From a virus (Duplodnaviria; Caudoviricetes): a DNA stretch of 64,000 bases. Where the stretch lies: the IMG/VR virus record IMGVR_UViG_3300017700_000537, positions 1 to 64,000 of that record, one strand, 5' to 3'. A model generated the notes under the pieces. That model worked only from the letters and a program-made list of their open reading frames with translations. It made no database searches and was not told the DNA's origin. Every line of letters starts with the position of its first letter. The stretch's first letter is position 1. The translations under genes and the position numbers were made by a program. Below are positions 9,045 through 51,790 of the stretch, one piece after another.

Positions 9045-9071
9045 TGGGGTCCAAACGACACAACGGTATAA

Positions 9072-12695: not shown

Positions 12696-12700
12696 TAAAA

Positions 12701-13033: not shown

Positions 13034-13133
13034 CCCTCCCCGAAGCCAGAACTATTTTCAAGAACATGCAGGCCCAGAACCCGTTGGTGAACGAACTCCA
13101 CAAACGGTTCGAGCTTGCGCAACCAATTTCAGG

Positions 13134-15350: not shown

Positions 15351-15930
15351 CAAATCCGGCACCTACGCCAAGGCCCCGCTTAACTACGAAGAGCTGCGCA
15401 CCTTCATCGACACCATCATTAACCCAGAGTACCGCCTGATGGTAGCCATCATCACAGCGGGCTTCATGCGGGTAGGAGAGGTGGTGAAGATGCGGAAGGG
15501 CGACATCGCCAACGGCAAGATAATGGTCAGAAAGACCAAAGTCCGCCATGACAAGAACCATCGCCCCATAAAACCCTACCGTGAGGTCCCTATGCCAGAA
15601 TGGGTTCAGGAAATCGCCAACGAAGTATTGCCACTCCTAAAAAGGCAGAAGGACGAGCTGTTGTTTCAGAAACAACGTGGAGGTGGAGGGCTAACTGTGA
15701 ACGGCGTGAATGACAGGCTTGACAGGATTTTCGCAAAGACCGAGACCACTCAAAAGGTCACTTGCCACTCCCTGCGCCGCACGGCAGCCGTCAGGATTCA
15801 CGACAACAGCGGGAACGACCTTCGCATGGTGCAGATAGCCTGCGACCACAAGTCCATCGCCACATCCGGCATCTACGTGATGAAGGGTAGGGCGGATTTC
15901 GAGGAAAAATACAAAGCAGCATTCGGATGA
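15340..15930 (+). CDS. Tyrosine recombinase, catalytic domain only (about 196 aa)
   Basis: Catalytic residues R (GFMRVGEV), K (RKTK), HxxR (HSLRR), H...Y (DHKSIATSGIY); likely start MRNNKSG. Confidence 0.85.
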   Translation: MRNNKSGTYAKAPLNYEELRTFIDTIINPEYRLMVAIITAGFMRVGEVVKMRKGDIANGKIMVRKTKVRHDKNHRPIKPYREVPMPEWVQEIANEVLPLLKRQKDELLFQKQRGGGGLTVNGVNDRLDRIFAKTETTQKVTCHSLRRTAAVRIHDNSGNDLRMVQIACDHKSIATSGIYVMKGRADFEEKYKAAFG

Positions 15931-24134: not shown

Positions 24135-24145
24135 ACAAAACCACG

Positions 24146-24173
24146 GCATGGGGCTTCGGCCCTATGCTTTTTT
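24146..24173 (+). terminator. Intrinsic terminator after the major capsid gene
   Basis: GCATGGGGC-TTCG-GCCCTATGC then a T-run. Confidence 0.85.
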
Positions 24174-24199
24174 CTTTTTTCAGCACCAATCAATAAAAA

Positions 24200-25006
24200 A
24201 TGATAAAGACAAAACAGTTCAACAAACTGCCGGACGGCTTCGAAATGCCGAAGCTGGGCAGGGACGAAGTGGCGGTGTTCGTATCGCTACACAACAGTAA
24301 GGGGCCGGACCAGACCCCACTCTACCCGACCTACGGTATCTCCAACAAGGCAACCATCATCACCGACGATGGTCCGGTCGAGATAGCCTACGTCACGCAG
24401 GATGCGCCAGATGGCAAGTCCCCGCAGCTTGGCGATGTCATCTTCGAGTCCTCGCAGAAGGGCACGATAATCTGCAAGGGTTCTTCGCCGTCCGACATCA
24501 GGAAGTTCGAATACCTCATGCTCCACCCGGCCAACGAGGCCAACGGGGGCAGCACGTACCGCAGGGAAACGCCTGGCGCCAAGACAAAGAGCGAACTTGA
24601 CAAACAGAAACTGGTGGCAGCAGCCGTAAACTTTGCCACAGATACCCCGCTTGATTCACTGAAATCACTGCTCGCAGAGCGCAGTATTGACACAAAGGGC
24701 AAGACCGAGGACGATGTGCGCTTACTGGCCCTTGAAGAAGGGAAAAAGAAGGCATTTGAGGTAGCAGTATCGCTGATAAACGCAGCAGATGCCGCCCTGC
24801 TCCGGGAAATGTACGAGGCAGGGGCCCTGAAGTGGAACGGCCAGAAGAAAATGGTCGTCTCGGCATTGACCGATACGGAATTCGGCGCAGCGGGGGTCCG
24901 TCAGACAGACTCTGACAAGGTAGGCAAGCTGCTGGATGCCGCATCAAAGAACACAGAACTGGCTTCACTGCTGCTTGCAGAGGTGGAACTGTTTAGAGAG
25001 CCATAA
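24200..25006 (+). CDS. Conserved phage protein following the capsid gene
   Basis: 268-aa ORF in the structural operon. Confidence 0.65.
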   Translation: MIKTKQFNKLPDGFEMPKLGRDEVAVFVSLHNSKGPDQTPLYPTYGISNKATIITDDGPVEIAYVTQDAPDGKSPQLGDVIFESSQKGTIICKGSSPSDIRKFEYLMLHPANEANGGSTYRRETPGAKTKSELDKQKLVAAAVNFATDTPLDSLKSLLAERSIDTKGKTEDDVRLLALEEGKKKAFEVAVSLINAADAALLREMYEAGALKWNGQKKMVVSALTDTEFGAAGVRQTDSDKVGKLLDAASKNTELASLLLAEVELFREP

Positions 25007-25007
25007 T

Positions 25008-26375
25008 ATGAACAATCTCCGGGTAACATTCGACAAGACGGACACCCAACTGCTTCTCAGCGACTCGCTGGAGACCGGCGAATGCCGTGTTGTCATCACC
25101 TACCCGGATGGGATTGTCCAGGACTTGGGCAAGATACTGAAATTGAGCAATGACTGGGCGTATTCTCTCGCCAGTAGGACCGATTTGTTCGGCAACTACA
25201 TGGAGGGTGAATACGCCTTTCTTTTTGAGAGGTACGATGTTGGCGGGACCACCCCGACATCCACAGATTCCGGCACGTTCACGCTTTCCGTGGACGCAGT
25301 GACGCCCGAGGTCACAGTGACGAACGATTCGCTCACGCCATCATTGAGGCTCACAGATTCCACTGATTGGAATGCAGAGATTGACGGCGTGTGGACGATA
25401 GACACACTGTTGAGGATTTGGAACGCACAGAACGGGTTACACTACTTCGGGCCCAGCTCGCAGGCAACCTTGAGCCTGTTCGATTCCGGCTATTTTACCG
25501 GAACCTACACCTACACCATCACGGCGGACACCGCCTATAACCACGAAAACGGCTGGGTGAGCGTAAAGCTGTCCAGTGAAACAAGCGGAGAATTCATTGT
25601 AAAACAACCTGTTATGCTACCAGAAATATTGGCATTGCTTAATTGCCTATACGCAAAAATCATCGCCAAGCAGTGCTGCAAGGATGCGACCTACGACGAG
25701 ATGCAGTCCGACTACATCAAGGCGAGCGCCATGTTCAGCTCTTTTGTGCTGAACGGCCAGGCCGATATAACTTCGAGCCAGGCGTCACTGTTGTTCGGCT
25801 CAGACTGCGAGCTCGGCATCCTCGGCATCCTCAGGAAGTGGGGATGCTACGATGACACGCTCACCGAGGCGCAACTTGCTTCCTACGACTATTGTCTGTG
25901 CGATACAGGTGGTGGTGGCGGAACGGTAGCATCAAGAGAGGGGTATGATGCCGGAAACGGCTGCTTCCTAACCTCTGATGCCACAGATGACGATGACCGT
26001 TGGACATTCGCAGTAGCATCAGGTATCGGTTCGTTCACGCAGAACCTTGCTGGTAGCCGTATTTTCGGTGGCACCGTCCGTGGTGACGATTCAACTGCCA
26101 CGCACACATCGAACTCTGCGACAAACAGCTTCAAGCTGAACGTTCCAGTCCCAGGTGAACTCGCCAACCTCGGATACGCATCTGCATTGTTGGCCAGCAC
26201 GAGCGTGTGGTCATCCCCAAACTCCGACCCAACAGCGGCAGCTCCTTGGGTGTTGGATGAGGGCAGTGTGCAGAAGCGCATTGTCGGCATAGCTTCCGGG
26301 GTAATTTCATTTGTCTTTGCCGGGATTGGGGCAACCTATCCAGACGGCTGGGCGATTACATTCGAAACACCATGA
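25008..26375 (+). CDS. Putative virion protein (beta-rich N-terminus, Cys-rich helix, Gly linker)
   Basis: Likely start MNNLRVTF; Thr/Ser-rich with a GGGGG linker. Confidence 0.6.
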   Translation: MNNLRVTFDKTDTQLLLSDSLETGECRVVITYPDGIVQDLGKILKLSNDWAYSLASRTDLFGNYMEGEYAFLFERYDVGGTTPTSTDSGTFTLSVDAVTPEVTVTNDSLTPSLRLTDSTDWNAEIDGVWTIDTLLRIWNAQNGLHYFGPSSQATLSLFDSGYFTGTYTYTITADTAYNHENGWVSVKLSSETSGEFIVKQPVMLPEILALLNCLYAKIIAKQCCKDATYDEMQSDYIKASAMFSSFVLNGQADITSSQASLLFGSDCELGILGILRKWGCYDDTLTEAQLASYDYCLCDTGGGGGTVASREGYDAGNGCFLTSDATDDDDRWTFAVASGIGSFTQNLAGSRIFGGTVRGDDSTATHTSNSATNSFKLNVPVPGELANLGYASALLASTSVWSSPNSDPTAAAPWVLDEGSVQKRIVGIASGVISFVFAGIGATYPDGWAITFETP

Positions 26376-29300
26376 TGAAAAGAGTATTTTTATTGATTTT
26401 TTTGGTGCTGTGGGGACTTGCTTCGTTTGGTCAAACAAATGAGCTTGTGGGTACGTTCTCTGTGGTTTCATCCACAGGCTCGGACCCTACTCCCACAGTA
26501 ACGGGCAACTTCAACTCCACTGCTGGCTTTTTGCCACAAAATGTCGATACTGGCGATGTAATGCTGGTCAGGCAGGTATTTGCTGGCAACCACCGGCGCA
26601 AGCTGTACCGGATTACTGGAATCACCGGCAACAGCCCGCTGGTGCTCACGATGACACTGATTGAAGGCACCACTGGCGGGCCATTTCCGGCAGGCACACA
26701 GGAAATCTTCCGCAGGACAGCCAAGGGCGCACTGCTCGACGTTCCGAACGTCTCTCAAGAGCTGGAATCCTACACCTATAACTACAATGTCCAGCATTTT
26801 GAGGATGCTGACGTTGATACTACGATAATCAGGAACGATAGCAGCTTTGTGCTTCTTAACGACGGCACAGAGTTCTATCTAGGCCCAAGTACGGCAAACG
26901 GCATCTCAGACTCCTACCAGATTGGAGATTCCATTTATGTCGTCACTGGCATGGACACCATTTTCACAGGGATCGCCTATGCGAACCCTGAAATTGATAC
27001 AATCTACAACGACGGCACCAACTACTACATGGTGACTGTCGAGGGCGATACTATCGAAATAGGGGCAGTGGCCCAGGTCGTGGCAAATGGGGCACACCCA
27101 ACTAACCCACCAGCCTACTTAATCCATATCGACACGCTCGGAACGGATACAATCTATTTCGATAATGGAGGCGTGTGGGTAAGATTCAATGTGGGGGGGA
27201 GCTCAATCGGAGCTCCACTATTTACTGCGCTCAACGCTACCCTGACATCTTTCCATCCGGCAGGGGTGCCGCCAATCGGGGCCATCATCTGGAACCCATT
27301 CCGAGGGGTGCTTATGCGGAAGTATGGTCCGGTCGGGATATTCACCATTGGAGAGCCGAACGGGAAGAACGTTTATGTCACCGAACGATACTACCAAGCA
27401 GATACATTGGATGGCTGGAACATCTCTACACATGCTTCAGCGACATTCGCCCTTGATGTGGTGAACGGCTACGCCGATGACCCGCTCGGGCTTTCTTCCT
27501 CGCAAAGAGGTGGTTCTCGGACAATGGTAGTCACCAACAGTTCCGGCAGCCCACTGACTGTGACGTTCAGCACCAAATATCGGAACACGCTCGGAACTAC
27601 GCCATTATCACCAATCACCATAACCGAAAACTCGGAACTCACACTTGACTTCACGGTGGATGTCAACGACACGGAGACGATAATGCGGCTCAGTGCGCCA
27701 TTGTCGTCCGGCAGTTCATATGCGTTCCAGAACTTGGCAAACGGGATTGACCTACTTGAATCAGGTGGAACAGTAACTGTCGCACCGAACATCACCGAGC
27801 TTGTGTACGCCGCAGTGGCTGCCGCAGACTCCGTAATGATTTGGGACAGTTCGTTGAATGCCCACAGGCGGTCCAGTGTGGCCGAGATAGTGGCCCTTGC
27901 AAGTGCAGGCACGGTGACTGTAACGAACTTGGCCAATGGATTGGACATCTTTATGACCGGAAGCGACATCACAATCGCCCCGGACTTCGGAGAGCTACCA
28001 AACGCAGCCGTGGCAAATGCTGATAGCGTAATGGTGTACGACGTGAGCGCAGCGGCTTACCGGCGGGTGTCGGCAGCCTCAATAGCCGCTCTTTTTGCTG
28101 GCAGTGGGCTTACTGGTGTCACAGACCAAGCGAATGGCCTTGACATCGCTGCTGGCGGTGGGTTGGTAACAATTGACTACGATTTCGATGAACTCCCAAC
28201 CGATGTCACATACAACGGCACGGAGCAGTTCATCTTCAAGGACCTCATAGATGGGGTCTATAAAAAAGCTACTACCTCTTTCCTTGCTGGCGGATACCTT
28301 GACCTCACAACCGACCAAACAGTAAGCGCAGGGGTGAAGAAATTCGCAGGTGGGCTACAATGGGGTACGGGCACGATGCCTACTGGCATACCGTTCGGCT
28401 CTGCCACGCAGACAGTGTTCGGATTGAAGGGAGGTTCAACGCTACCGCTATCCGAATCAGCTTGGGCGAACTACGGCGGATTGGTTATCGAGAACAACTT
28501 GGTGCCAAATACCGTCACCACAAGGTTCATCGCAACCGGAGATGACTCTGGCACCCCAGATAACTCCGTCATGTCGTTCTTCACGCGCCCAGCAGGGGCT
28601 TCACAGAACGTTGTTGAGAACTTCCGGCTGACATCGGCTGGCGCATTCTTTGGCAATTCTTCTGGGCTTTCATCTGGAACCGCTGGCGGGGTAGCGAACG
28701 TACCGATTCAAGGCATTGGATGGGATGGTGGGCAAAGTCTCTGGAGATTGGCTTCTGGCCAGCCAGGCGGGTTTCTTTTGCTGGAAAACGGCAACCTGAA
28801 TATGCAGGTGCCAGTAGGCCAGCAGACATGGCAGCCAGCTTCGGACATCAGGCTGAAGCACGACACAGTTCGGCTTGACATCACCCCGGCCAACATCCGG
28901 GACTTCAAGTCTTACACCTATAAATGGAATACCTCGGACAGTGCCACTATCGGCGTGATAGCCCAGCAGATTGAGGCTGATTTCCCGGAAATCGTTCACT
29001 TGATGGCGGGGACTGTCGATACGATGGGTGTTGATTACTATGCGCTCGCGGCAATCGCCTACGCTGCCTGTGAAGAGCTTCAGCGACAGATTGATTCGTT
29101 GTCCACCGGCAGAGGCGTTGACACCACGGCATCGGCAGGAAATCTACTGATAGATATAGAAACCAATTTCGCAAACATAACCGGCAGTACCACAACAAAT
29201 GCCATCTATACAACCGATAGAAGGGCAGGAAGCGAGGTGACACTGTTGTTTACCACAGGGACCCCAACAATCAAGCATAATACATCGGGTGGGGCAGGTA

Positions 29301-29416
29301 CGGCAGCAATGCTGTTGGCCGGAGCTGTCGATTTCACACCAAGCGGGCCATCTACCTTGACGCTCATTTATGACGGGTCAAGGTGGCATGAAAAATGTAG
29401 GTCAATCAATCATTAA
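26372..29416 (+). CDS. Tail fibre/spike-like protein with peptidase-S74 chaperone domain and N-terminal signal peptide
   Basis: SDIRLKHD...YTYKW...IGVIAQQIEADFPEIV...VDYYAL...EELQRQIDSL; three internal repeats of about 65 aa; MMKRVFLLIFLVLWGLASFG-Q. Confidence 0.75.
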   Translation: MMKRVFLLIFLVLWGLASFGQTNELVGTFSVVSSTGSDPTPTVTGNFNSTAGFLPQNVDTGDVMLVRQVFAGNHRRKLYRITGITGNSPLVLTMTLIEGTTGGPFPAGTQEIFRRTAKGALLDVPNVSQELESYTYNYNVQHFEDADVDTTIIRNDSSFVLLNDGTEFYLGPSTANGISDSYQIGDSIYVVTGMDTIFTGIAYANPEIDTIYNDGTNYYMVTVEGDTIEIGAVAQVVANGAHPTNPPAYLIHIDTLGTDTIYFDNGGVWVRFNVGGSSIGAPLFTALNATLTSFHPAGVPPIGAIIWNPFRGVLMRKYGPVGIFTIGEPNGKNVYVTERYYQADTLDGWNISTHASATFALDVVNGYADDPLGLSSSQRGGSRTMVVTNSSGSPLTVTFSTKYRNTLGTTPLSPITITENSELTLDFTVDVNDTETIMRLSAPLSSGSSYAFQNLANGIDLLESGGTVTVAPNITELVYAAVAAADSVMIWDSSLNAHRRSSVAEIVALASAGTVTVTNLANGLDIFMTGSDITIAPDFGELPNAAVANADSVMVYDVSAAAYRRVSAASIAALFAGSGLTGVTDQANGLDIAAGGGLVTIDYDFDELPTDVTYNGTEQFIFKDLIDGVYKKATTSFLAGGYLDLTTDQTVSAGVKKFAGGLQWGTGTMPTGIPFGSATQTVFGLKGGSTLPLSESAWANYGGLVIENNLVPNTVTTRFIATGDDSGTPDNSVMSFFTRPAGASQNVVENFRLTSAGAFFGNSSGLSSGTAGGVANVPIQGIGWDGGQSLWRLASGQPGGFLLLENGNLNMQVPVGQQTWQPASDIRLKHDTVRLDITPANIRDFKSYTYKWNTSDSATIGVIAQQIEADFPEIVHLMAGTVDTMGVDYYALAAIAYAACEELQRQIDSLSTGRGVDTTASAGNLLIDIETNFANITGSTTTNAIYTTDRRAGSEVTLLFTTGTPTIKHNTSGGAGTAAMLLAGAVDFTPSGPSTLTLIYDGSRWHEKCRSINH

Positions 29417-29417
29417 C

Positions 29418-30674
29418 ATGAAGAACATATTTTTAGCAATATTTTTGTTGGTTTCGGCTGTTGCTTTTGCGCAGCCAGTATCGAACACCATCACCTCCGA
29501 TGGGAGTGTGGTCACAGTTGCAACTCCTGTCAACTCGAAATCTATCCCAGTTTGTAGCTTTAACTGGATAATCGTTGATGGATACTTGCGTATCTGGATA
29601 ACAGGATCCAATGAGCAGGTCCCAGGCGGCAGACTAAAGTTCTTCACCATCAATGGGGTGACGGACAACAGTTTAAAGGCTGGTGCGCTTGGGGCTATCA
29701 CGGATGAGTGCTCGGCAGGCGGCAGCGGTGGTGGACTTGACTCATTATATTATGGCACCTCGCTGCTTGCAAATGGTGATACGATTGCTGTGAGTGGTAA
29801 CACCATTTACACTGCTTCGGATAGTGTGGCTAATAATGACCAGCAAGTTAAAATAAAAGACGACAGCACGTTTTCAATAAGTTATGGATTGCCATACGAA
29901 CAATTTTGGAATGATTACGCTAACAGCACTAGGTTTTCAGGTATGTTTAATTCGGAAGGTTATTGGGGAGCAAATGGTTTTGCGCTTTTGGAAAAAAATG
30001 GAGATTCACTAACAATTGAAAGCTACATTAATATTAAAAGTGATGGTGAGGTTTATATTTCCTCAAAAAAATCTGGAACAAATAAACAGGCGTCATTTGC
30101 ATTATCAGAAAATGGGCCAAGTTTTTCAGGGTCTAATCCAACCTATACATATAAACTTCCATCTTCGTCCCCTTCCATCACAAACCTAGCAAAATCCATA
30201 ATAACTTGGACGGGGGATGGTTCTACAACTACTCCGGCTTTTGAAGCATACTTATTTGGCACAACAACAAATGACAACGCTAGTGCTGGCTATATTGGCG
30301 AATACATTTCATCCACATTAGCTAGTGGCTCTGCCCTGTCTTTTACTACTGCCACCGCCAGGAATATTGATACGCTCGTTCTTGCGGCAGGAGATTGGGA
30401 TGTTGACGCAAACTTGATATTTGGGGAGGGTTCCGCAACTGTCACTAGCCGCAGTGCTGCAATAACCACAACCAGTGCGACACTGCCTAGTAACGGAACA
30501 GAGTGCCCGCTTGATATTCCAACCACACTTACAAGCGGCAGGAATAGTATTTCAGTCAAGACGACTAGGATTTCTATTGCAAGCACGACGAATGTCTATT
30601 TAGTGGGCAGTGCAACATTTTCGGCTGGAACTGTTTCTGGCTATGGAAGTTTTTCCGCAAGGAGAGTAAGGTAG
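29418..30674 (+). CDS. Second tail/receptor-binding-like protein with signal peptide
   Basis: MKNIFLAIFLLVSAVAFA-Q; beta-rich C-terminus ending ...GYGSFSARRVR. Confidence 0.6.
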   Translation: MKNIFLAIFLLVSAVAFAQPVSNTITSDGSVVTVATPVNSKSIPVCSFNWIIVDGYLRIWITGSNEQVPGGRLKFFTINGVTDNSLKAGALGAITDECSAGGSGGGLDSLYYGTSLLANGDTIAVSGNTIYTASDSVANNDQQVKIKDDSTFSISYGLPYEQFWNDYANSTRFSGMFNSEGYWGANGFALLEKNGDSLTIESYINIKSDGEVYISSKKSGTNKQASFALSENGPSFSGSNPTYTYKLPSSSPSITNLAKSIITWTGDGSTTTPAFEAYLFGTTTNDNASAGYIGEYISSTLASGSALSFTTATARNIDTLVLAAGDWDVDANLIFGEGSATVTSRSAAITTTSATLPSNGTECPLDIPTTLTSGRNSISVKTTRISIASTTNVYLVGSATFSAGTVSGYGSFSARRVR

Positions 30675-30711
30675 GTAATGGGACAGTATTTTAGAACAAA
30701 TTTTATAACTA

Positions 30712-31311
30712 ATGAATTTAAGGCAAAAAATCGGACTGAATATTGTCAAGGCAAGTTTTTTGAGACTAGCCTTGTCATTAGTCTGGCCAGTATTGGTCGG
30801 CGCACGGGTTTTGGTTACTATTTTTTGTATTGGGATATTACTCCTCGTTCCGGGTAAGGTGGTAGCACAAGAACCTTATTTGCCTAAGACAGAAAAAGTG
30901 CAGTACGGCTTCACGCCTGGTAAGATTATTGGGTGGGCTTCATTGGCTATTGGCGGTTTCGCAGATGGGGCATTGGAGGGTTATCAATTTGATTCAAGGA
31001 AGTCCTTTGAGCGAAAATGGAACAGTGACCCGTATGGGTTTTGGGGCAGCCAAAGCTGGCGGATGATTTATAATGAGGGCAATCCGCAGATGGGGGTTAA
31101 ATCTAAAATCCATAACTGGCTAGGGGCTGTTGATTTTTACCACGTAGCGGATGACACCCGAAAAATTGGGTACATCGGCGGTGGAATTACGCTTGGAATT
31201 TCTGGGTGTAAGGCAAACAAGAAGTGGTGGCACTGGGCGCTGGATATTGGAATATCGTCAATCATTTCATCTTCCGCCAAATCGCTTGGGATGAAATGGG
31301 TAAGGAGTTGA
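30712..31311 (+). CDS. Membrane/exported hypothetical protein
   Basis: Long hydrophobic N-terminus ending VVA-Q plus further hydrophobic helices. Confidence 0.55.
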   Translation: MNLRQKIGLNIVKASFLRLALSLVWPVLVGARVLVTIFCIGILLLVPGKVVAQEPYLPKTEKVQYGFTPGKIIGWASLAIGGFADGALEGYQFDSRKSFERKWNSDPYGFWGSQSWRMIYNEGNPQMGVKSKIHNWLGAVDFYHVADDTRKIGYIGGGITLGISGCKANKKWWHWALDIGISSIISSSAKSLGMKWVRS

Positions 31312-31334
31312 AACATTTTAAACAGCATCAAAAT

Positions 31335-31898
31335 ATGAAGAAGATTTTATTGTTCGCATTCCTAGTCACCTTCCTGGCAAACCCGTTTGCGCAGACGAAG
31401 CCATTAGTTAAGAAATCAGCGCCACAGGCTGAAAGGCCAATCCAGATTGACACCACTGCTCCAGAAGTAGTATTCGCAGACCTCTGCATCCAGCTTGAAG
31501 GAGACAGCATCTGTGTGCCGACCAATGACGCCAAGGTAGCATCTGACATCATTATCGAGTTCTATCGGAAGCATGAAGGCAATCTGCCTACTTCTGCCGG
31601 TGGATGGGTATTATTAGTGTTCGGGTTCCTGACCAGCGCGGCAGGGACGGTATTCGTTGGGAGCACAAAGAAAATCGTTGCCTTCCTAAAGCTGTTCTTG
31701 AAGAAAAAGGCCAACGTGGTTGCTTTCGTTGCAGGCATCCTAGCCCTGTTCGTCACGCTGTTGATAGGTCAGTGGAAGTTTGACGGCACCACCTTTATAG
31801 GCATCTGGGGCGTACTCTCCGCTGCATCGTGGCTGGTGTACGAGAATGTTCTTGCGAAGAAAGATACTCCGAAGGTTGACCCAGTAGCTACTGCGTAA
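31335..31898 (+). CDS. Signal-peptide membrane protein (3 C-terminal TMs)
   Basis: MKKILLFAFLVTFLANPFA-Q, a short soluble domain, then TM segments. Confidence 0.65.
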   Translation: MKKILLFAFLVTFLANPFAQTKPLVKKSAPQAERPIQIDTTAPEVVFADLCIQLEGDSICVPTNDAKVASDIIIEFYRKHEGNLPTSAGGWVLLVFGFLTSAAGTVFVGSTKKIVAFLKLFLKKKANVVAFVAGILALFVTLLIGQWKFDGTTFIGIWGVLSAASWLVYENVLAKKDTPKVDPVATA

Positions 31899-31899: not shown

Positions 31900-33417
31900 A
31901 TGCAGATTTCGTTCAGCAAGTTGGGGAACATGGGGAGATTGGCGAACCAATGCTTCCAAGTAGCATCTATGAAAGGGCTAGCTCGCAGCAAAGGTTGTGA
32001 GCTAGCCCTTCCTGCATGGAGGTACAGCAAATACTTCGTAGGGAAACACCCAGAAGGCCATTGCCGTGGAATACAGGTAAGTGAACCAGCCTTCCACTAC
32101 TGCGGTGACTTCATCCCGAACGACGAAAGAGGGGTTGACGTGGTGGGCTACCTTCAATCACCCAAATACTGGCAGGCTATCGAACCGGAAATCAAAAAGC
32201 ATTTTGAGTGGGAGCCAAATTTCTTGGCACAAATACGTCAAAAGTACGTCCACACACTTAGTAAGCCAACCGTGGCGATACACATCCGCCGTGGAGATTA
32301 CGTTAACAACAAAGCATACGTCAACCTCCCACCACTCTACTACCTCCGGGCAATCATCGAAAAAATCCCGGACTGGCGCAACTGCCACCTGGTATTCTTC
32401 AGCGATGACCAATCGTATGCAAAAATGCACTTCGGGTGCTTTGAGAACGCACAGTTCCCGGACGGCGACGAGATGGACAACCTCTGTTTGATGACCCAGT
32501 GCGACCACTTTGTAATCGCAAACAGTAGCTACTCCTGGTGGGGAGCGTACTTAGGCGAGAAACCGCACAGTATTATCGTCCGCCCGGAACGGCACTTCTC
32601 CGGCAGCCTCGCAGGAACCTCGATAGCCGACCTATACCCTGAACATTGGACGAAGCTCAATGAGCTGAACAGAAAAATAGACCTCAACGACATCACCTTT
32701 GTGGTGCCAATGAGCTATGACCACCCGGACAGGTTTGAAAACCTTACCTTGATGGTCGGTCTTTTGAAAGCCAACTTTGACACGAAGTTCTCATTCGTCG
32801 AACAAGGAGGGAGAAAGTTGGGCGCTTTTACGCCTTGGCGGTTCTTTGAAGGGAAGCACTTTCACCGGACAAAGATGCTTAACGATGCCATCAGAGATGC
32901 CAAGACCCCGTTCGCAGCGAACTACGACAGTGATGTGGCATTGCCGCCTGCGCAGATATTCGAGGCCGTGGAAAGGCTAAGAAATGGCGCAGACATAGTG
33001 TACCCCTACACTGGAGACTTCTGGCACGTCACAAGGAATCCCGGATATGAGAACCTTAAAAACAGCATGGATGTCGGGATATTCTCGCAGCTAAGTTTCA
33101 GGAAAACAGAAAACTCAAGGGGCGGGGCGGTGTTTATGAACATCAAGTCATTCTTCAAGGCAGGCGGGGAAAACGAGAACTTTATCTCCCACGGCCCAGA
33201 AGATGCAGAAAGGTGGATTCGGTTCACAAGACTTGGCCTGGTTGTTGATTTCATAAAGGGCTGCATCCTGCACATGGAACACTGGCGGGGGAACAACTCG
33301 CATTCAATGAAGCACCCGAATGGGCAGCGAAACCAGGATGAATATCACAAGGTGATGGCGATGGACAAGGAGCAGTTAAAAGCGTACATAAAAACGTGGT
33401 CATGGGCGGCAACGTGA
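31900..33417 (+). CDS. GT11 (alpha-1,2-fucosyltransferase-type) fused to a GT-A/GT7-like glycosyltransferase domain
   Basis: MGRLANQCFQ, HIRRGDY, FVIANSSYSWWGAYL; second domain YDSDV (DxD) and GGENENFISHGPEDAE. Confidence 0.85.
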   Translation: MQISFSKLGNMGRLANQCFQVASMKGLARSKGCELALPAWRYSKYFVGKHPEGHCRGIQVSEPAFHYCGDFIPNDERGVDVVGYLQSPKYWQAIEPEIKKHFEWEPNFLAQIRQKYVHTLSKPTVAIHIRRGDYVNNKAYVNLPPLYYLRAIIEKIPDWRNCHLVFFSDDQSYAKMHFGCFENAQFPDGDEMDNLCLMTQCDHFVIANSSYSWWGAYLGEKPHSIIVRPERHFSGSLAGTSIADLYPEHWTKLNELNRKIDLNDITFVVPMSYDHPDRFENLTLMVGLLKANFDTKFSFVEQGGRKLGAFTPWRFFEGKHFHRTKMLNDAIRDAKTPFAANYDSDVALPPAQIFEAVERLRNGADIVYPYTGDFWHVTRNPGYENLKNSMDVGIFSQLSFRKTENSRGGAVFMNIKSFFKAGGENENFISHGPEDAERWIRFTRLGLVVDFIKGCILHMEHWRGNNSHSMKHPNGQRNQDEYHKVMAMDKEQLKAYIKTWSWAAT

Positions 33418-33910
33418 GGCTTGGACATAGGAGCTACGGGGAGCCGATAGTCCGTGGTGACATCTCGGACGTGATTATCGGCAAGTATTGCTCGATAGCG
33501 CAGAACGTCATTGTTGACTGTGGCTGGCACCACAACGTTGATTGGGTGACTACCTATCCGTTGAATGCAATCCTGACCAGTCTGCGACACATCACCGGCC
33601 ATCCAAAGTCAAACGGAAACATAGTCATCGGAAATGATGTTTGGATAGGTGAAGGTGCTGTCATAATGGGCGGGGTGACGATAGGGGATGGGGCTGTGGT
33701 CGGCAGCAACGCCGTGGTGACAAAGGATGTAGACCCATACGCCATAGTCGGCGGAATCCCGGCAAAAAGATAAGGATGAGGTTCGACAGCCAGACGATAG
33801 CCGAACTGATAGAAATAGCTTGGTGGGACTGGAGCGACGAGAAGGTTGTCGAAGCTGGTCCGCTTCTTCTTCAAAACGACATTAAAAAATTCATAGAAAA
33901 ATATGGTTAA
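33402..33910 (+). CDS. CatB/Vat-type hexapeptide O-acetyltransferase, split by a 1-nt frameshift at about 33764-33770
   Basis: IGKYCSIA...IGNDVWIGEGAVIMGGVTIGDGAVVGSNAVVTKDVDPYAIVGGIPAK, then in the -1 frame IRMRFDSQTIAELIEIAWWDW (33776..33910). Confidence 0.8.
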
Positions 33911-34472
33911 ACAGAAATACGCAGACATCGTGACTCCAGAGCTTCTGGAAGGCGCAATCGAGAATTTGGAATACGTTGGCTTCCGGGAAGACTACCATGT
34001 CCTCCATTGCCTGCTCAAGATTCACAAGCCGAAATCCCTATTGGAAATCGGCACGAACATGGGCCGTGGCACGAAGATAATCAAGAATGCGCTTGGTCCA
34101 GAAAGTGATGTGTACAGCCTGGATTTACCAACAGACCTTGCACACATCAGCCTGCAACATCCAATCAATGAAGGGCATGGAGATAGGGTTGGGCATCTTT
34201 GCAGCCTTCCGTTCACGCAGTTGAGGGGAGACAGCATGGAGTTTGATTTCAAGCAGTATCCTTGCGAAGCCTACTATATTGATGGCGAGCACGACTTCAG
34301 TCACCCATACCGTGAAACATCTGAAATCGTAAAGAATAAGCCACATATTATAATTTGGCACGATAGCGATATTGATGTCGTTTATAATGCAATCACCGCT
34401 GCGATGAAGGATAAGCCATACGAACTGTATCGGGTCGTTGATACTCGCATCGCATACGCAATCAGGAAATGA
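33903..34472 (+). CDS. Class I SAM-dependent methyltransferase (Methyltransf_24-like)
   Basis: LLEIGTNMGRGT, LRGDS, YYIDGEH, IIIWHD. Confidence 0.75.
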   Translation: MVKQKYADIVTPELLEGAIENLEYVGFREDYHVLHCLLKIHKPKSLLEIGTNMGRGTKIIKNALGPESDVYSLDLPTDLAHISLQHPINEGHGDRVGHLCSLPFTQLRGDSMEFDFKQYPCEAYYIDGEHDFSHPYRETSEIVKNKPHIIIWHDSDIDVVYNAITAAMKDKPYELYRVVDTRIAYAIRK

Positions 34473-35227
34473 CGGGAATCGTAATCGTAACATACAATCG
34501 TGCCGACCTGCTCCCGCTACAACTGGAAGCGATAAGGCTGTTCTGTGCGGACAAGCATGAAGTTGTCATTATCGACAACTCAACGGATGAAGAATCTTCC
34601 GCCATGATAGCGTTCATTGCCTCCGATAACAGGGTGTACAGAACGTCGTCGAACAGCAGGAACAGCAGCGACAGTCATGCTTTTGCTGCCAATTTCGCTT
34701 TCAATAAGCTGAGGAACGACTACGAGCACTTCCTGTTCTTGGACCACGATATTTTCCCTACTAAGCCATTCTCTGTGGCAGAAATGCTGCGGGACAGGTT
34801 TATTGGTGGCCTTGGGCAAATAAAGCACAAGACCTATCTTTGGCCGGGGTTTGTGTTCTGGCGGAACGACAAAATCGAATCACTTGACTTCTCCACATCA
34901 CCGGGGCTTGACACCGGCGGTAACACATGGAAAGAGGTGGAGAGGATTGGCATCGAGGGGGTTGTCTGGCAGCCGGAAGTTTACCATGAAAACCCATACT
35001 TCAAGGAACCTCCGTACAATTTCTATTCGGTCATCGGGGATGGCTGGATGCACTTCATAAACTCGTCGAATTGGAACGGACAGCCCAACCACAACGAAAG
35101 GCTGGACTCCCTGACGACGATACTAAGAGAAAAAATCAATGAAAGTATCGCTTTGCATCATAGCAACCAACAAGTACACGAAGTACCTCCCGAAACTCTT
35201 ATCGTCACTGGCGACTTTCTTCCTTAA
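34469..35227 (+). CDS. GT2-like glycosyltransferase
   Basis: IVIVTYNR, VIIDNS, FLFLDHDIF. Confidence 0.75.
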   Translation: MTGIVIVTYNRADLLPLQLEAIRLFCADKHEVVIIDNSTDEESSAMIAFIASDNRVYRTSSNSRNSSDSHAFAANFAFNKLRNDYEHFLFLDHDIFPTKPFSVAEMLRDRFIGGLGQIKHKTYLWPGFVFWRNDKIESLDFSTSPGLDTGGNTWKEVERIGIEGVVWQPEVYHENPYFKEPPYNFYSVIGDGWMHFINSSNWNGQPNHNERLDSLTTILREKINESIALHHSNQQVHEVPPETLIVTGDFLP

Positions 35228-35858
35228 CGGCCATGATGTGGAATACTGCATCTTCACGGATAAAACAGCCGACGTGTTCAAAGAAAACAAGCGCCACAAG
35301 GACAAGCCGAAGATATTCAACGTCCCGCACTTGCCCTGGCCGAACTCTACCCTGAAACGGTTTCACTTTTTCAACGAAAATAAAGAATACATCACCGGAG
35401 ACTACGTGTTCTACATAGATGCCGACACAAGGCTCGTGGACTACGTGGGCGACGAAATCCTTTCCGACTTGGTGGCAGTCCAGCACTGCGGGTATGTCGG
35501 CGAACGTGGCACCTACGAAACGAGAGAGCTTTCGATGGCCTATATAGCCCCGAATGAGGGTAAGATGTATTTCGGTGGCGGATTCCTTGGCGGGAAGGCA
35601 GAGAATTTCTGGCAGGCATCCGAGACGATGGCCAATTCGATAGACGTGGATGCCCACAATGGCATTACTGCCATTTACCATGACGAAAGCCATTGGAACC
35701 GATACTTGGTTGACAATCCGCCAACAAAAGTGCTGTCGCCAAGCTACCACTTCCCGGAAAACCATCCGCACATTTATTCGAAATGGCAGAAGGCCGGGGT
35801 GTCCTACAAGCCAAAGATTCTTCTCTTGAAGAAGGACCACAAAGAAATGAGAAAATGA
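35139..35858 (+). CDS. GT6 (ABO/alpha-1,3-Gal/GalNAc transferase-type) glycosyltransferase
   Basis: IIATNKY, IFTD, LPWP..TLKRF, YIDAD (DxD), YFGGGFLGG, YHDESHWNRY. Confidence 0.85.
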   Translation: MKVSLCIIATNKYTKYLPKLLSSLATFFLNGHDVEYCIFTDKTADVFKENKRHKDKPKIFNVPHLPWPNSTLKRFHFFNENKEYITGDYVFYIDADTRLVDYVGDEILSDLVAVQHCGYVGERGTYETRELSMAYIAPNEGKMYFGGGFLGGKAENFWQASETMANSIDVDAHNGITAIYHDESHWNRYLVDNPPTKVLSPSYHFPENHPHIYSKWQKAGVSYKPKILLLKKDHKEMRK

Positions 35859-36559
35859 CAATAGCCTACATCCTCGGAGACGGGTCGAAGCACGACAACC
35901 TAGAGTTGCGGCTATCGCTGCGTTCCATCGAGAAGAACCTGAATCCATCGGAGGTCATTGTTTGCGGCCATGACCCTGGATTTCTGTCCGACAAGGTGAA
36001 GTATATCCCGAATTTCCCAGAAAAGAAAGAGAATGATGCTGCGTGGGGAATCAAGGAGAACCTATTGGCACTGTGCAGACACCCAGATACGCCGGACGAG
36101 TTCACACTTTTTAACGACGATTATTTCATCCTCCAGCCAATGGCCAGCTTCCCGTACTACCACAAAGGTGAGCTTCGAGAGGCTATGGAGCGCATTGGGT
36201 CAGGCATTTTCTACGGCCACCTTCTCGCAACTGTAACCGTTTTGGAGAAGCAAAAGCTGCCCACAAAGCACTTTGATTGTCATTGGCCAATCATCTACGA
36301 CAAGAAAAAGCTCCAAAAAATCATAGAAGACCAAGACTGGGACGTCCCGCTTGGCCCGACCATCCGAAGCCTCTACTGCAACACGCTTGGCATCGATGGA
36401 GAGTTCGCCGACGACACCAAGCTGAATAGGCCGATAAAAGACTGGGAGCTGCATTGTTTCGGCAGGAAAATGATTTCTGTGGGCGACGAGTCATTTGATG
36501 GCAATTGTCGAAAATACTGGCTATCTTTGTTTCCAAATAAGTCTAGGTACGAAAAATGA
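35855..36559 (+). CDS. Stealth-family-like sugar-phosphate transferase
   Basis: ELRLSLRSIEKN, FTLFNDDYF, HWPIIYDK, RSLYCN resemble Stealth conserved regions. Confidence 0.55.
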   Translation: MTIAYILGDGSKHDNLELRLSLRSIEKNLNPSEVIVCGHDPGFLSDKVKYIPNFPEKKENDAAWGIKENLLALCRHPDTPDEFTLFNDDYFILQPMASFPYYHKGELREAMERIGSGIFYGHLLATVTVLEKQKLPTKHFDCHWPIIYDKKKLQKIIEDQDWDVPLGPTIRSLYCNTLGIDGEFADDTKLNRPIKDWELHCFGRKMISVGDESFDGNCRKYWLSLFPNKSRYEK

Positions 36560-37317
36560 CAATACTTGATTTCCATCTACTTTACAAGCTGGTTTCGGAC
36601 AAGAGCGGATCAGATTACACCTCCCATGAGGAGATAGACCGTCTTGCCAACATCGCACAGATGGAATATTTCGGCTTCCTGCTCGGCAACTACAAGCAGT
36701 ACCAGCCAGGTCGCCCAGTGCCACCGGTAGTGGTAGGCCAGACTTCCCGGACAACAGAGGAGCTCAACCCGTTCAAGGTTACGATTGATTTTCTCACACT
36801 CCCATACGACCCTACGACAGCACCATACGGCGTCACGAACGGCATTCTCGCAATCCCGTTGGACTTCGAGCACATGAGTTCACTGAACTCCATGTTCATC
36901 CAAGCTGGAGAAATCCGATACCGGCCAATCCAAGAACTTGATGATGAAGAATGGGCGGCAAGGGTGGATAGCGAACTCATCCCCGTATCCAAGAAGGACG
37001 CAATCTACCGATTTATCGGAAAGGGCGGAACACTGAACAGCATCAGTATCGGCGAAAAACAGAAGGTGGAATTCAGGCCAAAGGACATTTCCGGCCAGCT
37101 TGTTTATTACCGAACCCCAGCCAAGCCGAACTACGTTTACACGATAAACACAACGACAAGGGTGGAAACACACGACGCTGCTACTTCCACCGACCTAGAA
37201 TGGGGCGAAGTGGCGACGATGAACATCTTGGTACGGACATTGCAGCTTGGCGGCATCAAGCAGGCTGACCAGATGCTGTACCAGGCAATGGGACAAAACA
37301 AAGCAACAGAGGAATAA
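36556..37317 (+). CDS. Tail ring / head-tail connector protein 1 (crAss-like)
   Basis: Position and size (253 aa); first of three similar-sized genes before the muzzle-like gene. Confidence 0.6.
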   Translation: MTILDFHLLYKLVSDKSGSDYTSHEEIDRLANIAQMEYFGFLLGNYKQYQPGRPVPPVVVGQTSRTTEELNPFKVTIDFLTLPYDPTTAPYGVTNGILAIPLDFEHMSSLNSMFIQAGEIRYRPIQELDDEEWAARVDSELIPVSKKDAIYRFIGKGGTLNSISIGEKQKVEFRPKDISGQLVYYRTPAKPNYVYTINTTTRVETHDAATSTDLEWGEVATMNILVRTLQLGGIKQADQMLYQAMGQNKATEE

Positions 37318-37946
37318 TGGCATCCAAGAAATACCTTACCGAATCCATACTCAGGATACTGAAGGGGGGCAACATAAGGTCTTCCTCCAACATCCTTGAA
37401 CAGGACATCCATGCGAGCATCGGACGCCACATCAATGCTTTGCTGAAAATGGAGGCCGTGAACCTGACATACCCGTTCGGGACTAGCATCCCCACCCACC
37501 ACATGATTGCCACCTACGAGGATGTGCCGGTGGTGAATGGAGACTGCGACAGGTCTAGCGCAATACTCCCGGCAACTCCTGTCGCTCTGCCCATGCAGAT
37601 TGGCGTCTGGAGGATAAGCAACTGTGACTGCGACTTCTTTATCCCGTTGGAGCCCGGAATGCTCAACGTGGCGAGCGGGGTGAACCACACGGCAATGTCG
37701 GCGATGCTCGGCAGTGAGCTGATAGCCTACGAGGTATCCGGCAACAAAGTTACGTTCAATAGGAACAGCGATGCGCTTGGTGGGACTGTAAAGATTCAGT
37801 TGTTGACCACGGACATCGCTTCGCTGGACGATTACGCACTACTGCCGATACCTCCCGACATGGAAGCGATGATAGTTAACCTTGTTGTCAGGGATTTTCA
37901 GCCAAGGCCGCATGACGACAGCAACAATTCACAAGACCAACCATGA
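37317..37946 (+). CDS. Tail ring protein 2
   Basis: Coupled ORF; PIPPDMEAMIVNLV-type C-terminus. Confidence 0.55.
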   Translation: MASKKYLTESILRILKGGNIRSSSNILEQDIHASIGRHINALLKMEAVNLTYPFGTSIPTHHMIATYEDVPVVNGDCDRSSAILPATPVALPMQIGVWRISNCDCDFFIPLEPGMLNVASGVNHTAMSAMLGSELIAYEVSGNKVTFNRNSDALGGTVKIQLLTTDIASLDDYALLPIPPDMEAMIVNLVVRDFQPRPHDDSNNSQDQP

Positions 37947-38686
37947 CGGCAAAGACTAAAATAGATTCGATAATCCGCCAGGTTCTCCTCGAGAAAGGGC
38001 TTCCGGTGCATTTCTATATCAGGCTCCTATCTTGGGGCCTTGACTGTTTGAGCGAACTTGAACTCGACCTCATTGGCCGGGTGAAGACGGCAGAGCTTAC
38101 CGTGGACGAATTTTCCCGGATAAAACTGCCTTGTGACTACGTTGATTGGGTAAGGGTCGGCCAGACATACGGCCAGAACGTACTCAAGATGGGCGAGACG
38201 AACACTTTCGCCAGGAACCTCAACCAGAGCGACGGCATCTACACTCCCTACGGTGACGCAGAAGAAACTTCTTCTTACTACTGGGCGAGCTACTATGTAC
38301 AGGACTGGCTGGACAAGAACGGGGAGTTCCGTGGCCGGGGCTTTGGCGGGAATGGCACAAGAACTGACACTTTCATGGTGTTGGACGATGTGATGCAGCT
38401 CAACAACAACTACGCATACGGCGACATCATCAACCTTGACTACATTGCCTTCGACAAGCATTCTGCATCGAGCTATGTGGAGAGGTATGCGGTATCTACC
38501 ATCCGTGCGTACATGGAATACAAGTACATCTGCTCCATGCCAAAGACTGCCCCATACGACAAGAGTGTGGCTGCAAAGGCCTACGAGAACGAACAGCGGA
38601 AGCTGGCTGCCAGGATAAATCCATTGGACATCGAGGCGGTTGGTAGGATAAAACACAGGAGATTTTCACAAACACCGAAGTTCTAA
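37943..38686 (+). CDS. Tail ring protein 3
   Basis: LPCDYVDWVRVG; coupled ORF. Confidence 0.55.
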   Translation: MTAKTKIDSIIRQVLLEKGLPVHFYIRLLSWGLDCLSELELDLIGRVKTAELTVDEFSRIKLPCDYVDWVRVGQTYGQNVLKMGETNTFARNLNQSDGIYTPYGDAEETSSYYWASYYVQDWLDKNGEFRGRGFGGNGTRTDTFMVLDDVMQLNNNYAYGDIINLDYIAFDKHSASSYVERYAVSTIRAYMEYKYICSMPKTAPYDKSVAAKAYENEQRKLAARINPLDIEAVGRIKHRRFSQTPKF

Positions 38687-51124: not shown

Positions 51125-51790
51125 ATGAAAAAACTTCCAGCACTAATAACGATCGCAGCCTTGGCACTTATTGCAATACTGGCCATCCAGCGTTGTTCCT
51201 TTCACAAGCAGAAGGATAAGGATTCAACCGCCCTTCTCGACCTGAACGAGAAGAAATTCACGCAGTTCAAAACTGAATCCGGCAAGAACGCAGGTATGGC
51301 CGATGCCCGCATCATGGACTTGCAGACGCTGCTTGCGCTAGAGAAGACAAAGGTCGCCAGGCTGGCCAAAGAACTGAACCTAACCGTGAAGGATATTAAA
51401 CGGATAGTTGACGTACAGCTAGAGGGAAAGGACACCATCAAGTTGACGCAGGTGGATACGATATATTACCCGGAAACAAAAGAGCCTGACGAACCACGGC
51501 CTTATTTTGCAGTAAGGCCGTATGTGTTTGAGGATCGCTGGAACTATTTCGAGGCATACCTTAATGATGGTGAAATTGACATAAATTACTCCATCACTGA
51601 TAGTATCCAAATAGTAGAGACAAAATCCGGCAATACAAGGACTTTCACGGCCTTCAACAGCAATCCTGCCATACGAATTAAAGGTATGCAGGCAATAGTA
51701 ATTGAGGAGCCAAAGGCACGTAAAAAGAGATTATGGTGGACAATACCAGTGGCCGTTGCTGCTGGCGTAGTATTAGGTAGTAGATTATAG
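51125..51790 (+). CDS. Putative spanin-like lysis protein
   Basis: N-terminal TM/signal, coiled coil, hydrophobic C-terminus. Confidence 0.5.
   Translation: MKKLPALITIAALALIAILAIQRCSFHKQKDKDSTALLDLNEKKFTQFKTESGKNAGMADARIMDLQTLLALEKTKVARLAKELNLTVKDIKRIVDVQLEGKDTIKLTQVDTIYYPETKEPDEPRPYFAVRPYVFEDRWNYFEAYLNDGEIDINYSITDSIQIVETKSGNTRTFTAFNSNPAIRIKGMQAIVIEEPKARKKRLWWTIPVAVAAGVVLGSRL

What the first reader, a model, noticed from the sequence alone, without database searches (positions are those of the whole stretch)
26372..31898. Tail-fibre-type proteins with Sec signal peptides and dense Bacteroidota O-glycosylation sequons
Seen: the S74-chaperone tail protein (..LASFG-Q), the next tail-like protein (..AVAFA-Q) and the two following membrane ORFs (..VVA-Q, ..NPFA-Q) all start with hydrophobic leaders followed by Gln. 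In the 1014-aa protein 15 of 21 D-S/T sites match D-(S/T)-(A/I/L/V/M/T), seven of them within about 115 aa (26816-27154); in 29418..30674 all 6 match; the portal has 0 and TerL 1. Known: tailed-phage virion proteins normally assemble in the cytoplasm, whereas Bacteroidota glycosylate exported proteins at this sequon and cyclise an N-terminal Gln after signal cleavage. Inference: these proteins are exported, O-glycosylated in the periplasm (possibly elaborated by the adjacent cassette) and then join the particle at lysis, or are displayed on the infected cell. Caveat: the signal-less 25008..26375 protein also has about 7 sequons, so Ser/Thr/Asp richness explains part of the signal.
Basis: partly seen in the sequence, partly recalled or inferred. 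Interest (0 to 1): 0.85.

Follow-up and report, generated by a model that had tools for sequence, protein, structure and literature searches.

The report
Phage tail fibres with export signals
In this complete 75-kb phage of a Bacteroidota host, both tail-fibre genes begin with conserved secretion signals and are unusually rich in the host phylum's periplasmic sugar-attachment motif, so the fibres are probably made outside the cytoplasm, a route I found described for no tailed phage.

Summary
The 1014-aa S74 fibre has 15 D-S/T-(AILVMT) motifs against 5.2 expected (z 4.6), and only Asp at the first position is enriched. Its leader is kept in all 21 family members found among 1.84 billion protein clusters. 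In all of them it is 16-27 aa long, with a positive start, a hydrophobic core, a small residue at -1 and Gln at +1. The leader sequence drifts (25% identity) while the mature N-terminus stays at 57%.

Across eight related phage loci the motif excess goes with the signal, at about 2-3 times expectation with it and 0.55-1.0 without. This includes unrelated signal-bearing proteins in a distant relative. Host DNA from a Bacteroidota genome gives 1.57 against 1.01.

No outer-membrane sorting signal was found, so surface display is unlikely. Export and glycosylation are well supported. Joining the virion after lysis is plausible but untested: these are the only fibre genes and sit in the virion operon, yet the MS-verified fibres of a cultured relative carry no signal. 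A role for the neighbouring sugar-transferase genes is also untested.

This scan has noted signal peptides on tail fibres of other phages before. The Gln rule and the glycosylation-motif evidence are what is new here.

The parts
26372..29416 (+). P0001, a 1014-aa tail-fibre-type protein: signal peptide, conserved N-terminal module, fibre body, S74 intramolecular chaperone and a C-terminal beta-sandwich-like tail
   Evidence: PF13884 E 5.6e-9 (36.6 bits, cut-off 22) and phrog_1980 tail fiber E 1.3e-17. The start overlaps the upstream stop (ATGA).
26372..26431 (+). Signal peptide of P0001 (aa 1-20), with predicted cleavage SFG|Q
   Evidence: All 21 family members have a 16-27-aa leader with a +1/+2 n-region, a hydrophobic core, G/S/A at -1 and invariant Q at +1.
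26432..26830 (+). Conserved N-terminal module of the mature fibre (about 130 aa); its first ~95 residues model as a small beta-barrel
   Evidence: It is combined with swapped C-terminal modules in homologues. AF2 gives pLDDT 72-88 for residues 5-95, with only generic fold matches of Z 7-8.5.
26816..27154 (+). Sequon-dense stretch: 7 D-S/T-(AILVMT) sites in aa 149-259
   Evidence: Six of the seven are invariant in 8 orthologues.
28841..28996 (+). S74 chaperone core, with the catalytic motif S824-D-I-R-L-K829
   Evidence: Five of the 15 sequons lie after this autocleavage site.
29418..30674 (+). P0002, a 418-aa second fibre: signal peptide (nt 29418-29471, AFA|Q), its own conserved N-terminal module, and a C-terminal tail-fibre domain (aa ~279-418, nt 30252-30671)
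   Evidence: phrog_11393 tail fiber E 1.4e-17. The C-terminal domain matches fibres of cultured podophages BcepC6B, Kp2 and PPWS1. N-module homologues keep the signal and Q.
30712..31311 (+). P0003, a small membrane protein with two N-terminal hydrophobic segments followed by VVA|Q; its start is uncertain
   Evidence: No family hit.
31335..31898 (+). P0004: signal peptide (nt 31335-31391, PFA|Q), a ~70-aa periplasmic segment with 2 sequons, then 2-3 membrane helices
   Evidence: Homologues in L003 and L004 keep the signal and Q.
25008..26375 (+). Signal-less 455-aa structural-module protein directly upstream and translationally coupled; a possible fibre adaptor (inferred)
   Evidence: Conserved synteny in L003, L004, L005 and L038. 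The AF2 N-terminus gives two Ig-like sandwiches, which is generic.
31900..38686 (+). Adjacent glycan cassette (GT11 plus GT7C-like fusion, methyltransferase-like, GT2, GT6, Stealth-like and others); context only, link to the fibres untested
   Evidence: GT11 keeps the same position in L003 and L004.
51125..51790 (+). DUF6549 protein with N- and C-terminal membrane helices and 4 sequons (0.68 expected) in the part between them

Best explanation
The window belongs to a complete 75-kb podophage of a Bacteroidota host. Its two distal tail-fibre or receptor-binding proteins are made as Sec pre-proteins.

Inferred from sequence: the leader takes each chain through the inner membrane. Signal peptidase I cuts before an invariant Gln, which in this phylum is normally cyclised to pyroglutamate. 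The chains then fold and trimerise in the periplasm. For P0001 the ATP-independent S74 chaperone assists folding and then cuts itself off at Ser824.

Inferred from the motif excess and from published rules of the host system: the host's general O-glycosylation machinery loads glycans on many of the D-S/T-hydrophobic sites.

Least certain step: because these are the only fibre genes and sit inside the virion operon, the finished glycosylated fibres most likely dock by their conserved N-terminal modules onto fibre-less particles. That would happen once the holin opens the inner membrane and cytoplasm and periplasm mix.

My odds: export about 0.8; glycosylation about 0.6; virion attachment after export about 0.35.
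For: The record is a complete virus with terminal repeats. It carries TerL, a portal, an SU10-type capsid protein and a crAss-muzzle-like protein. The nearest isolates infect Flavobacteriia, and related contigs are mostly binned with Bacteroidota.

The leader is conserved in 21 of 21 family members, and Q at +1 is invariant. Leader identity is 25% against 57% for the mature start.

Sequon excess: P0001 has 15 against 5.2, specific to Asp. Orthologues have 15-21 each, with about 12 invariant sites. Distant family members pool to 34 against 15.4.

Signal-bearing proteins run at 2.2-2.9 times expectation and signal-less ones at 0.55-1.0 in five pooled loci; the signal-bearing fibre genes of L037, L038 and L040 show the same excess. 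The set includes a non-homologous 1082-aa signal protein (16 against 5.3) and a beta-helix tailspike-like ORF with a signal in a relative whose TerL is 39% identical.

Host calibration gives 1.57 times for signal proteins and 1.01 for the rest, with Q at +1 in 38% of signal calls. Sequons of P0004 and the DUF6549 protein lie only in their predicted periplasmic parts.

For a virion role: the start is coupled to the upstream structural gene, synteny is conserved, conserved N-modules carry swapped C-modules, and there is no signal-less paralogue.

Literature: PMC12871550, PMC8729774 and the exported S74 fibres of Bdellovibrio (PMC10769870).
Against: No experiment and no trained signal-peptide predictor were available. 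I found no precedent for a Sec-exported virion protein of a tailed phage.

Fibres gp085 and gp087 of the cultured relative Cellulophaga phi40:1 are virion proteins by MS, and they have no signal and no sequon excess.

About half of P0001's sequons sit in repeated G-D-T/S-I-Y/F-like or ADSVM contexts that could be structural. Five of the 15 lie in the part released by S74 autocleavage. The second fibre family shows only a modest, uneven excess. The window's signal-less 455-aa protein has 7 sequons.

Fold searches did not identify the N-module as a known tail-docking domain.
Confidence: 0.45

Rival explanations
1. The proteins are exported but are not virion parts. They would be periplasmic fibre-like binders or enzymes that act on the infected cell's own envelope. 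Possible roles are stripping or masking the receptor polysaccharide as it is made, which would block superinfection and keep progeny from sticking to debris, or helping release. The particle would then recognise hosts through another protein, such as the muzzle or an unannotated ORF.
For: The signal and sequon evidence holds as above. There is a weak Phage_depo_C hit. Homologues carry SGNH esterase modules on the same N-module (P0023). A beta-helix tailspike-like protein has a signal in the distant relative. The cultured relative builds its virion fibres without signals. Many large ORFs are unannotated.
Against: There is no signal-less fibre or paralogue in the 75-kb genome. The genes are translationally coupled inside the virion operon in all relatives. 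The layout of a conserved N-module with swapped C-modules is the hallmark of particle-docked receptor-binding proteins. P0002's C-domain is that of true virion fibres.
Confidence: 0.25
2. The pool is split. The leader is a real signal, but late in infection export is partial, so a cytoplasmic fraction assembles on particles in the ordinary way, perhaps with the leader uncleaved. The exported fraction would serve another purpose or be a by-product.
For: Fast-folding trimers are poor Sec substrates (general knowledge). In-frame TTG and GTG codons occur inside and just after the leader, but nothing marks them as starts.
Against: The Gln and the residues right after the cleavage site are invariant, and the family-wide sequon excess argues that the exported form is the one under selection.
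Confidence: 0.12
3. The leader is not an export signal. It would be a hydrophobic N-terminal helix used for membrane-associated assembly or trimer nucleation, or removed by a phage protease, and the sequon excess would be a structural by-product of beta-rich repeats.
For: Several sequons lie in repeated D-T-I-Y-like contexts. Porphyromonas phage capsid proteins with predicted signals have been read as protease-cleaved (PMC10367356).
Against: The n-, h- and c-region layout, the -3/-1 rule and invariant Q at +1 hold across 21 members while the sequence drifts. The excess is specific to Asp, not shared with Asn or Gly turns. It recurs in non-homologous signal proteins with dispersed contexts and is absent from signal-less fibres and from non-Q-rule homologues.
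Confidence: 0.1

Closest known systems
Podophage tail fibres and tailspikes with an S74 intramolecular chaperone (K1F endosialidase type); fibres gp085 and gp087 of Cellulophaga phage phi40:1 (Pervagoviridae)
   Same: An S74 domain with the SDxxxK motif, a place in the structural module, and a conserved N-module with variable distal modules. The phage backbone is distantly related (TerL about 29-31%, portal about 23% identity).
   Different: Those fibres start without any leader (MARIKNT...), are assembled in the cytoplasm, and show no sequon excess.
Bdellovibrio bacteriovorus MAT fibres (Caulton et al. 2024, PMC10769870)
   Same: [quoted passage not shown] They show that such fibres can be exported and mature outside the cytoplasm.
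   Different: They are bacterial proteins displayed on a predator cell, not encoded in a virion operon. Homology of the N-domains was not tested. They are not from a Bacteroidota host and have no sequon link.
Q-rule signal peptides on Porphyromonas gingivalis phage genes (Matrishin et al. 2023, PMC10367356)
   Same: Phage genes of Bacteroidota hosts whose predicted signal cleavage exposes Gln.
   Different: There they are genes of unknown function, read as envelope modifiers. No tail fibres and no glycosylation motif analysis are reported.
General O-glycosylation of noncytoplasmic Bacteroidota proteins (review PMC12871550; Veith et al. 2022, PMC8729774)
   Same: The same three-residue motif, the same restriction to exported proteins, and motif enrichment over chance in noncytoplasmic proteins.
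   Different: It has been described for host proteins only. No phage protein was mentioned in the review (0 occurrences of 'phage').
Mycobacteriophage virion glycosylation by phage glycosyltransferases (Freeman et al. 2023; cited from my own knowledge, paper not read here)
   Same: Glycans on virion proteins, and GT or methyltransferase genes beside structural genes.
   Different: That modification is cytoplasmic, acts on capsid and tail-tube C-termini, and involves no signal peptide or host periplasmic system.

Membership tests
Sec / signal peptidase I signal peptide (Bacteroidota type) | Positive n-region, uncharged hydrophobic h-region of about 10-15 aa, and small residues at -3 and -1 | tested here: met
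   Met for P0001, P0002 and all 21 members of the P0001 N-module family. P0004 has Pro at -3, which is atypical, but its homologues have S or T there. The scan is rule-based only.
Sec / signal peptidase I signal peptide (Bacteroidota type) | Gln at +1 (Bacteroidetes Q-rule) | tested here: met
   Q at +1 in 21 of 21 family members and in nearly all signal-bearing fibre-block proteins of the relatives. The host baseline is 38% of signal calls.
Sec / signal peptidase I signal peptide (Bacteroidota type) | Call by a trained predictor; experimental cleavage | not testable with these tools
   No SignalP or DeepTMHMM was available, and no proteomics.
Peptidase_S74 intramolecular-chaperone tail fibre | S74 domain above the curated cut-off, with the catalytic Ser-Lys motif SDxxxK | tested here: met
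   PF13884 scores 36.6 bits against a cut-off of 22, at aa 824-875. The motif is S824-DIRL-K829.
Bacteroidota O-glycoprotein | D-S/T-(A/I/L/V/M/T) motif in a noncytoplasmic, soluble region | tested here: met
   15 motifs in P0001, 6 in P0002, and 2 in the periplasmic segment of P0004. The noncytoplasmic location is itself inferred.
Bacteroidota O-glycoprotein | Glycan actually attached | not testable with these tools
   This needs glycoproteomics.
T9SS cargo or surface lipoprotein (route to the cell surface) | A C-terminal T9SS sorting domain, or a lipobox Cys at +1 | tested here: not met
   No NCBIfam hit at E <= 0.1 for P0001, P0002, P0003 or P0004. The +1 residue is Gln, not Cys. Divergent sorting domains could be missed.
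Known tail-docking N-domains of podophage fibres (T7 gp17 type and others) | Fold or sequence match of the N-module to a solved docking domain | tested here: inconclusive
   A profile search against PDB sequences gave no hit. The AF2 beta-barrel matches only generic barrels at Z 7-8.5, among them domains in JBD30, lambda and Chi tail tips.
Bdellovibrio MAT fibre family | Homology of the conserved post-signal ~130-aa domain | not tested
   Only the architecture was compared, from the paper. No MAT protein appeared among the 19 hits of the exhaustive search.

The most novel reading that the evidence does not exclude
A lineage of Bacteroidota podophages builds its receptor-binding fibres in the periplasm. 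The fibres would be Sec-exported, N-terminally pyroglutamylated and coated with the host's O-glycan (possibly remodelled by the phage's own GT cassette). They would be mounted on otherwise complete particles only after the inner membrane is breached. That would be a two-compartment assembly pathway yielding host-glycosylated virions.
Probability: 0.3. Interest if true: 0.9.

Novelty: new variant of a known kind. Interest (0 to 1): 0.7.

Why it matters
Tailed-phage assembly is taught as a cytoplasmic process. If receptor-binding proteins mature in the periplasm and carry host-type glycans, several things change:
- how host range is predicted and engineered for Bacteroidota phages, including gut crAss-like relatives;
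- how such fibres must be produced recombinantly, since they would need export and glycosylation;
- how virions are shielded from proteases or from immune and lectin recognition.

The sequon excess is also a second line of evidence for where the protein resides. It is sequence-based and independent of the signal peptide, and it can be applied to any Bacteroidota phage genome.

Tried and rejected
**Searches that gave nothing useful**
- tblastn of P0001 against 50,697 phage records found no match.
- PDB sequence searches with the P0001 profile, P0002 and the 455-aa neighbour found nothing meaningful.
- AF2 of the mature N-terminus gave only residues 1-95 with confidence, a generic small beta-barrel. 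Foldseek found nothing at E <= 0.001, and VIA gave Z of at most 8.5.
- AF2 of the 455-aa neighbour gave generic Ig-like sandwiches.
- The ESM Atlas search gave no lead.
- NCBIfam found no T9SS or other sorting domain.
- The search with P0004 found one near-identical protein only.
- Literature searches for exported or periplasmically glycosylated phage virion proteins found none. This covers only the held library.

**Explanations considered and set aside**
- Sequon excess from Ser/Thr/Asp richness: the shuffles keep composition.
- Sequon excess from a turn-plus-strand habit of fibres: Asn, Gly and Glu classes are not enriched.
- Sequon excess as a property of one repeat family: it recurs in non-homologous signal proteins, is absent from signal-less fibres, and is absent from the wide family sharing P0002's C-domain (ratios 0.8-1.0).
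- A signal-less paralogue supplying the virion copy: none was found.
- Downstream alternative starts: in-frame TTG and GTG codons exist, but nothing supports their use.
Full report
**What the window is.** The window is bases 1-64000 of a complete 75,159-bp virus record with direct terminal repeats. The plus-strand block from about 17 to 53 kb is a podophage virion module. In order it holds:
- TerL (phrog_6681) and portal (phrog_6547);
- a capsid protein with a weak SU10_MCP hit;
- the two fibre genes and two small membrane proteins;
- a glycosyltransferase cassette;
- a crAss-muzzle-like 1223-aa protein and a 2064-aa protein.

The nearest isolates by TerL and portal are podophages of Flavobacterium, Cellulophaga, Maribacter and Tenacibaculum, at 23-31% identity. 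Related contigs in genome bins are mostly labelled Saprospiraceae, Cyclobacteriaceae, Chitinophagaceae, Flavobacteriales or Bacteroidetes. A Bacteroidota host is therefore well supported, though indirectly.

P0001 has Peptidase_S74 above the Pfam cut-off, the catalytic S824-DIRL-K829 motif and tail-fibre PHROG hits. The C-terminal third of P0002 matches phrog_11393 and the tail fibres of cultured podophages BcepC6B, Kp2 and PPWS1. The P0001 start overlaps the stop of the upstream structural gene (ATGA), and P0002 starts two bases after the P0001 stop.

**Are the leaders real signals?** No trained predictor was available, so I used conservation.
- A word-indexed search and an exhaustive HMMER scan of 1.84 billion cluster representatives found a small family sharing the mature N-terminal module.
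- Every one of the 21 members that includes the N-terminus has a leader of 16-27 aa. Each leader has a +1/+2 n-region, an uncharged hydrophobic core, G/S/A at -1 and an invariant Gln at +1.
- The leaders are only 25% identical pairwise, while the first 40 mature residues are 57% identical. This is how signal peptides evolve.
- Homologues of the P0002 N-module and of P0004 likewise keep a leader and Gln.
- My rule-based caller flags only the two fibres among 34 ORFs of at least 120 aa on the structural arm. On 400 kb of a Bacteroidota genome it flags 77 of 280 ORFs, 38% of them with Gln at +1. It therefore recovers the known Q-rule (Bochtler et al. 2018, as cited in PMC10367356).

**Is the sequon excess real and meaningful?**
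- Composition-preserving shuffles give 5.2 for P0001 against 15 observed (z 4.6). Among all twenty first-position classes only Asp is enriched, which argues against a generic turn-plus-strand habit.
- The eight full-length orthologues (52-63% identical) have 15-21 sequons each. About twelve sites are invariant, and the third residue varies within the allowed set. There are also lineage-specific gains.
- More distant family members pool to 34 against 15.4.
- Across loci the excess follows the signal. Signal-bearing proteins run at 2.2-2.9 times expectation and signal-less ones at 0.55-1.0 in the window, L003, L004, L005 and the distant G004:C22. The signal-bearing fibre genes of L037, L038 and L040 show the same excess.
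- In C22 (TerL 39% identical) a 1082-aa signal protein with no detectable similarity to P0001 has 16 sequons against 5.3, in dispersed and varied contexts. A beta-helix tailspike-like ORF there has a TTG-started leader and also an excess.
- Host calibration gives 1.57 for signal proteins against 1.01 for the rest. This agrees with the published statement that the motif is enriched over chance in noncytoplasmic Bacteroidota proteins (PMC12871550).
- P0001's density of 1.5 sequons per 100 aa exceeds all 47 large host signal proteins sampled, whose maximum is 1.24.
- Three controls show no excess: the signal-less, MS-verified virion fibres of Cellulophaga phi40:1; the broad family sharing P0002's C-domain, with or without leaders (0.8-1.0); and the orthologues of the signal-less 455-aa neighbour (0-3 sequons each).
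- Sequons of P0004 and of the DUF6549 protein fall only in their predicted periplasmic segments.

**Caveats on the sequons.**
- About half of P0001's sequons lie in repeated G-D-S/T-I-Y/F or ADSVM contexts that may be structural.
- Five lie in the fragment released by S74 autocleavage.
- The second-fibre family is only mildly and unevenly enriched.
- The window's own 455-aa protein has 7.

**From export to glycosylation.** The review and glycoproteome papers state three things: motif sites in noncytoplasmic proteins are almost fully occupied, engineered motifs become glycosylated, and glycosylation works across species (PMC12871550; PMC8729774). If the fibres enter a Bacteroidota periplasm, glycosylation is therefore the expected outcome. 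The motif excess suggests it is selected.

**Where do the proteins end up?** No lipobox and no T9SS sorting domain were found, so display on the cell surface is unlikely.

Evidence for a virion role:
- The genes keep a conserved place in the virion operon in every relative examined.
- Translation is coupled to the upstream structural gene.
- Conserved N-modules carry swapped distal modules: S74, SGNH esterase and others.
- The 75-kb genome has no signal-less paralogue or other recognisable fibre.

Evidence against a virion role:
- I found no precedent.
- The fibres of the cultured relative are signal-less.
- I could not show that the N-module is a tail-docking domain.

Bdellovibrio MAT fibres show that fibres built as signal, then a ~130-aa beta-rich domain, then a mosaic fibre, then S74 can mature outside the cytoplasm (PMC10769870). 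I therefore rate export at about 0.8, glycosylation at about 0.6, and attachment to particles after lysis at about 0.35. A non-virion periplasmic role is the main rival.

**The glycan cassette.** GT11 plus a GT7C-like domain, GT2, GT6, a Stealth-like protein and a methyltransferase-like protein lie directly downstream. GT11 keeps that position in L003 and L004. Nothing here links the cassette to the fibres' glycans rather than to the host surface or to cytoplasmic virion glycosylation.

**Relation to earlier work.** This scan has repeatedly noted signal peptides on tail proteins of other uncultured phages, and later checks priced the exported-virion reading at 6-30%. Those notes led me to two papers that I read myself. 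This case adds the phylum-specific Gln rule and the glycosylation-motif excess, calibrated on host DNA and replicated in non-homologous proteins. Together these give evidence of periplasmic residence that is independent of the leader itself.

Noticed in passing
window 54667-56802, minus strand: Four consecutive small ORFs (123-165 aa) all start with signal-peptide-like leaders followed by Gln (..MEA|Q..AFG|Q..CQA|Q..LSA|Q). Two share nearly the same leader. None has a Pfam hit. They are probably exported accessory proteins.
   Followed up: partly
window 51125-51790 (+); L002 8180-8779 (Cellulophaga phi40:1 gp084): The DUF6549 protein has membrane helices at both ends and 4 sequons against 0.68 expected. 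The membrane-anchored gp084 next to the amidase of phi40:1 has 3 against 0.3. Envelope-spanning, possibly spanin-like phage proteins thus also carry the motif.
   Followed up: partly
window 14292-14801 and 15262-15930 (+): A double-HTH repressor-like protein and a short (222-aa) Phage_integrase-family protein lie upstream of the packaging genes. The phage may be temperate, although the record has terminal repeats.
   Followed up: no
G004:C22 about 8100-14160 (reverse strand; in my reversed copy 23474-29531): A distant relative (TerL 39% identical) has a 1082-aa signal protein unrelated to P0001 with 16 sequons. It also has a 668-codon beta-helix tailspike-like ORF whose leader needs a TTG start, so ATG-based gene calling truncates it.
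   Followed up: yes
proteins P0025-P0143 (homologues of the P0002 C-terminal domain): About 34 of 119 proteins sharing this tail-fibre C-domain have signal-like N-termini. They come from many environments and include one named Paraburkholderia protein. They show no sequon excess. Leaders on fibre-like proteins are therefore not confined to Bacteroidota phages.
   Followed up: partly
G000 72831-73238 (+), outside the window: A 135-aa ORF has a motif reminiscent of SleB-type cell-wall hydrolases (..ILYSECRGEP..). It may be the endolysin. No endolysin was recognised inside the window, and this ORF was not run against family libraries.
   Followed up: no
window 2785-3135, minus strand: A 116-aa ORF has a strongly hydrophobic leader. 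Its function is unknown.
   Followed up: no
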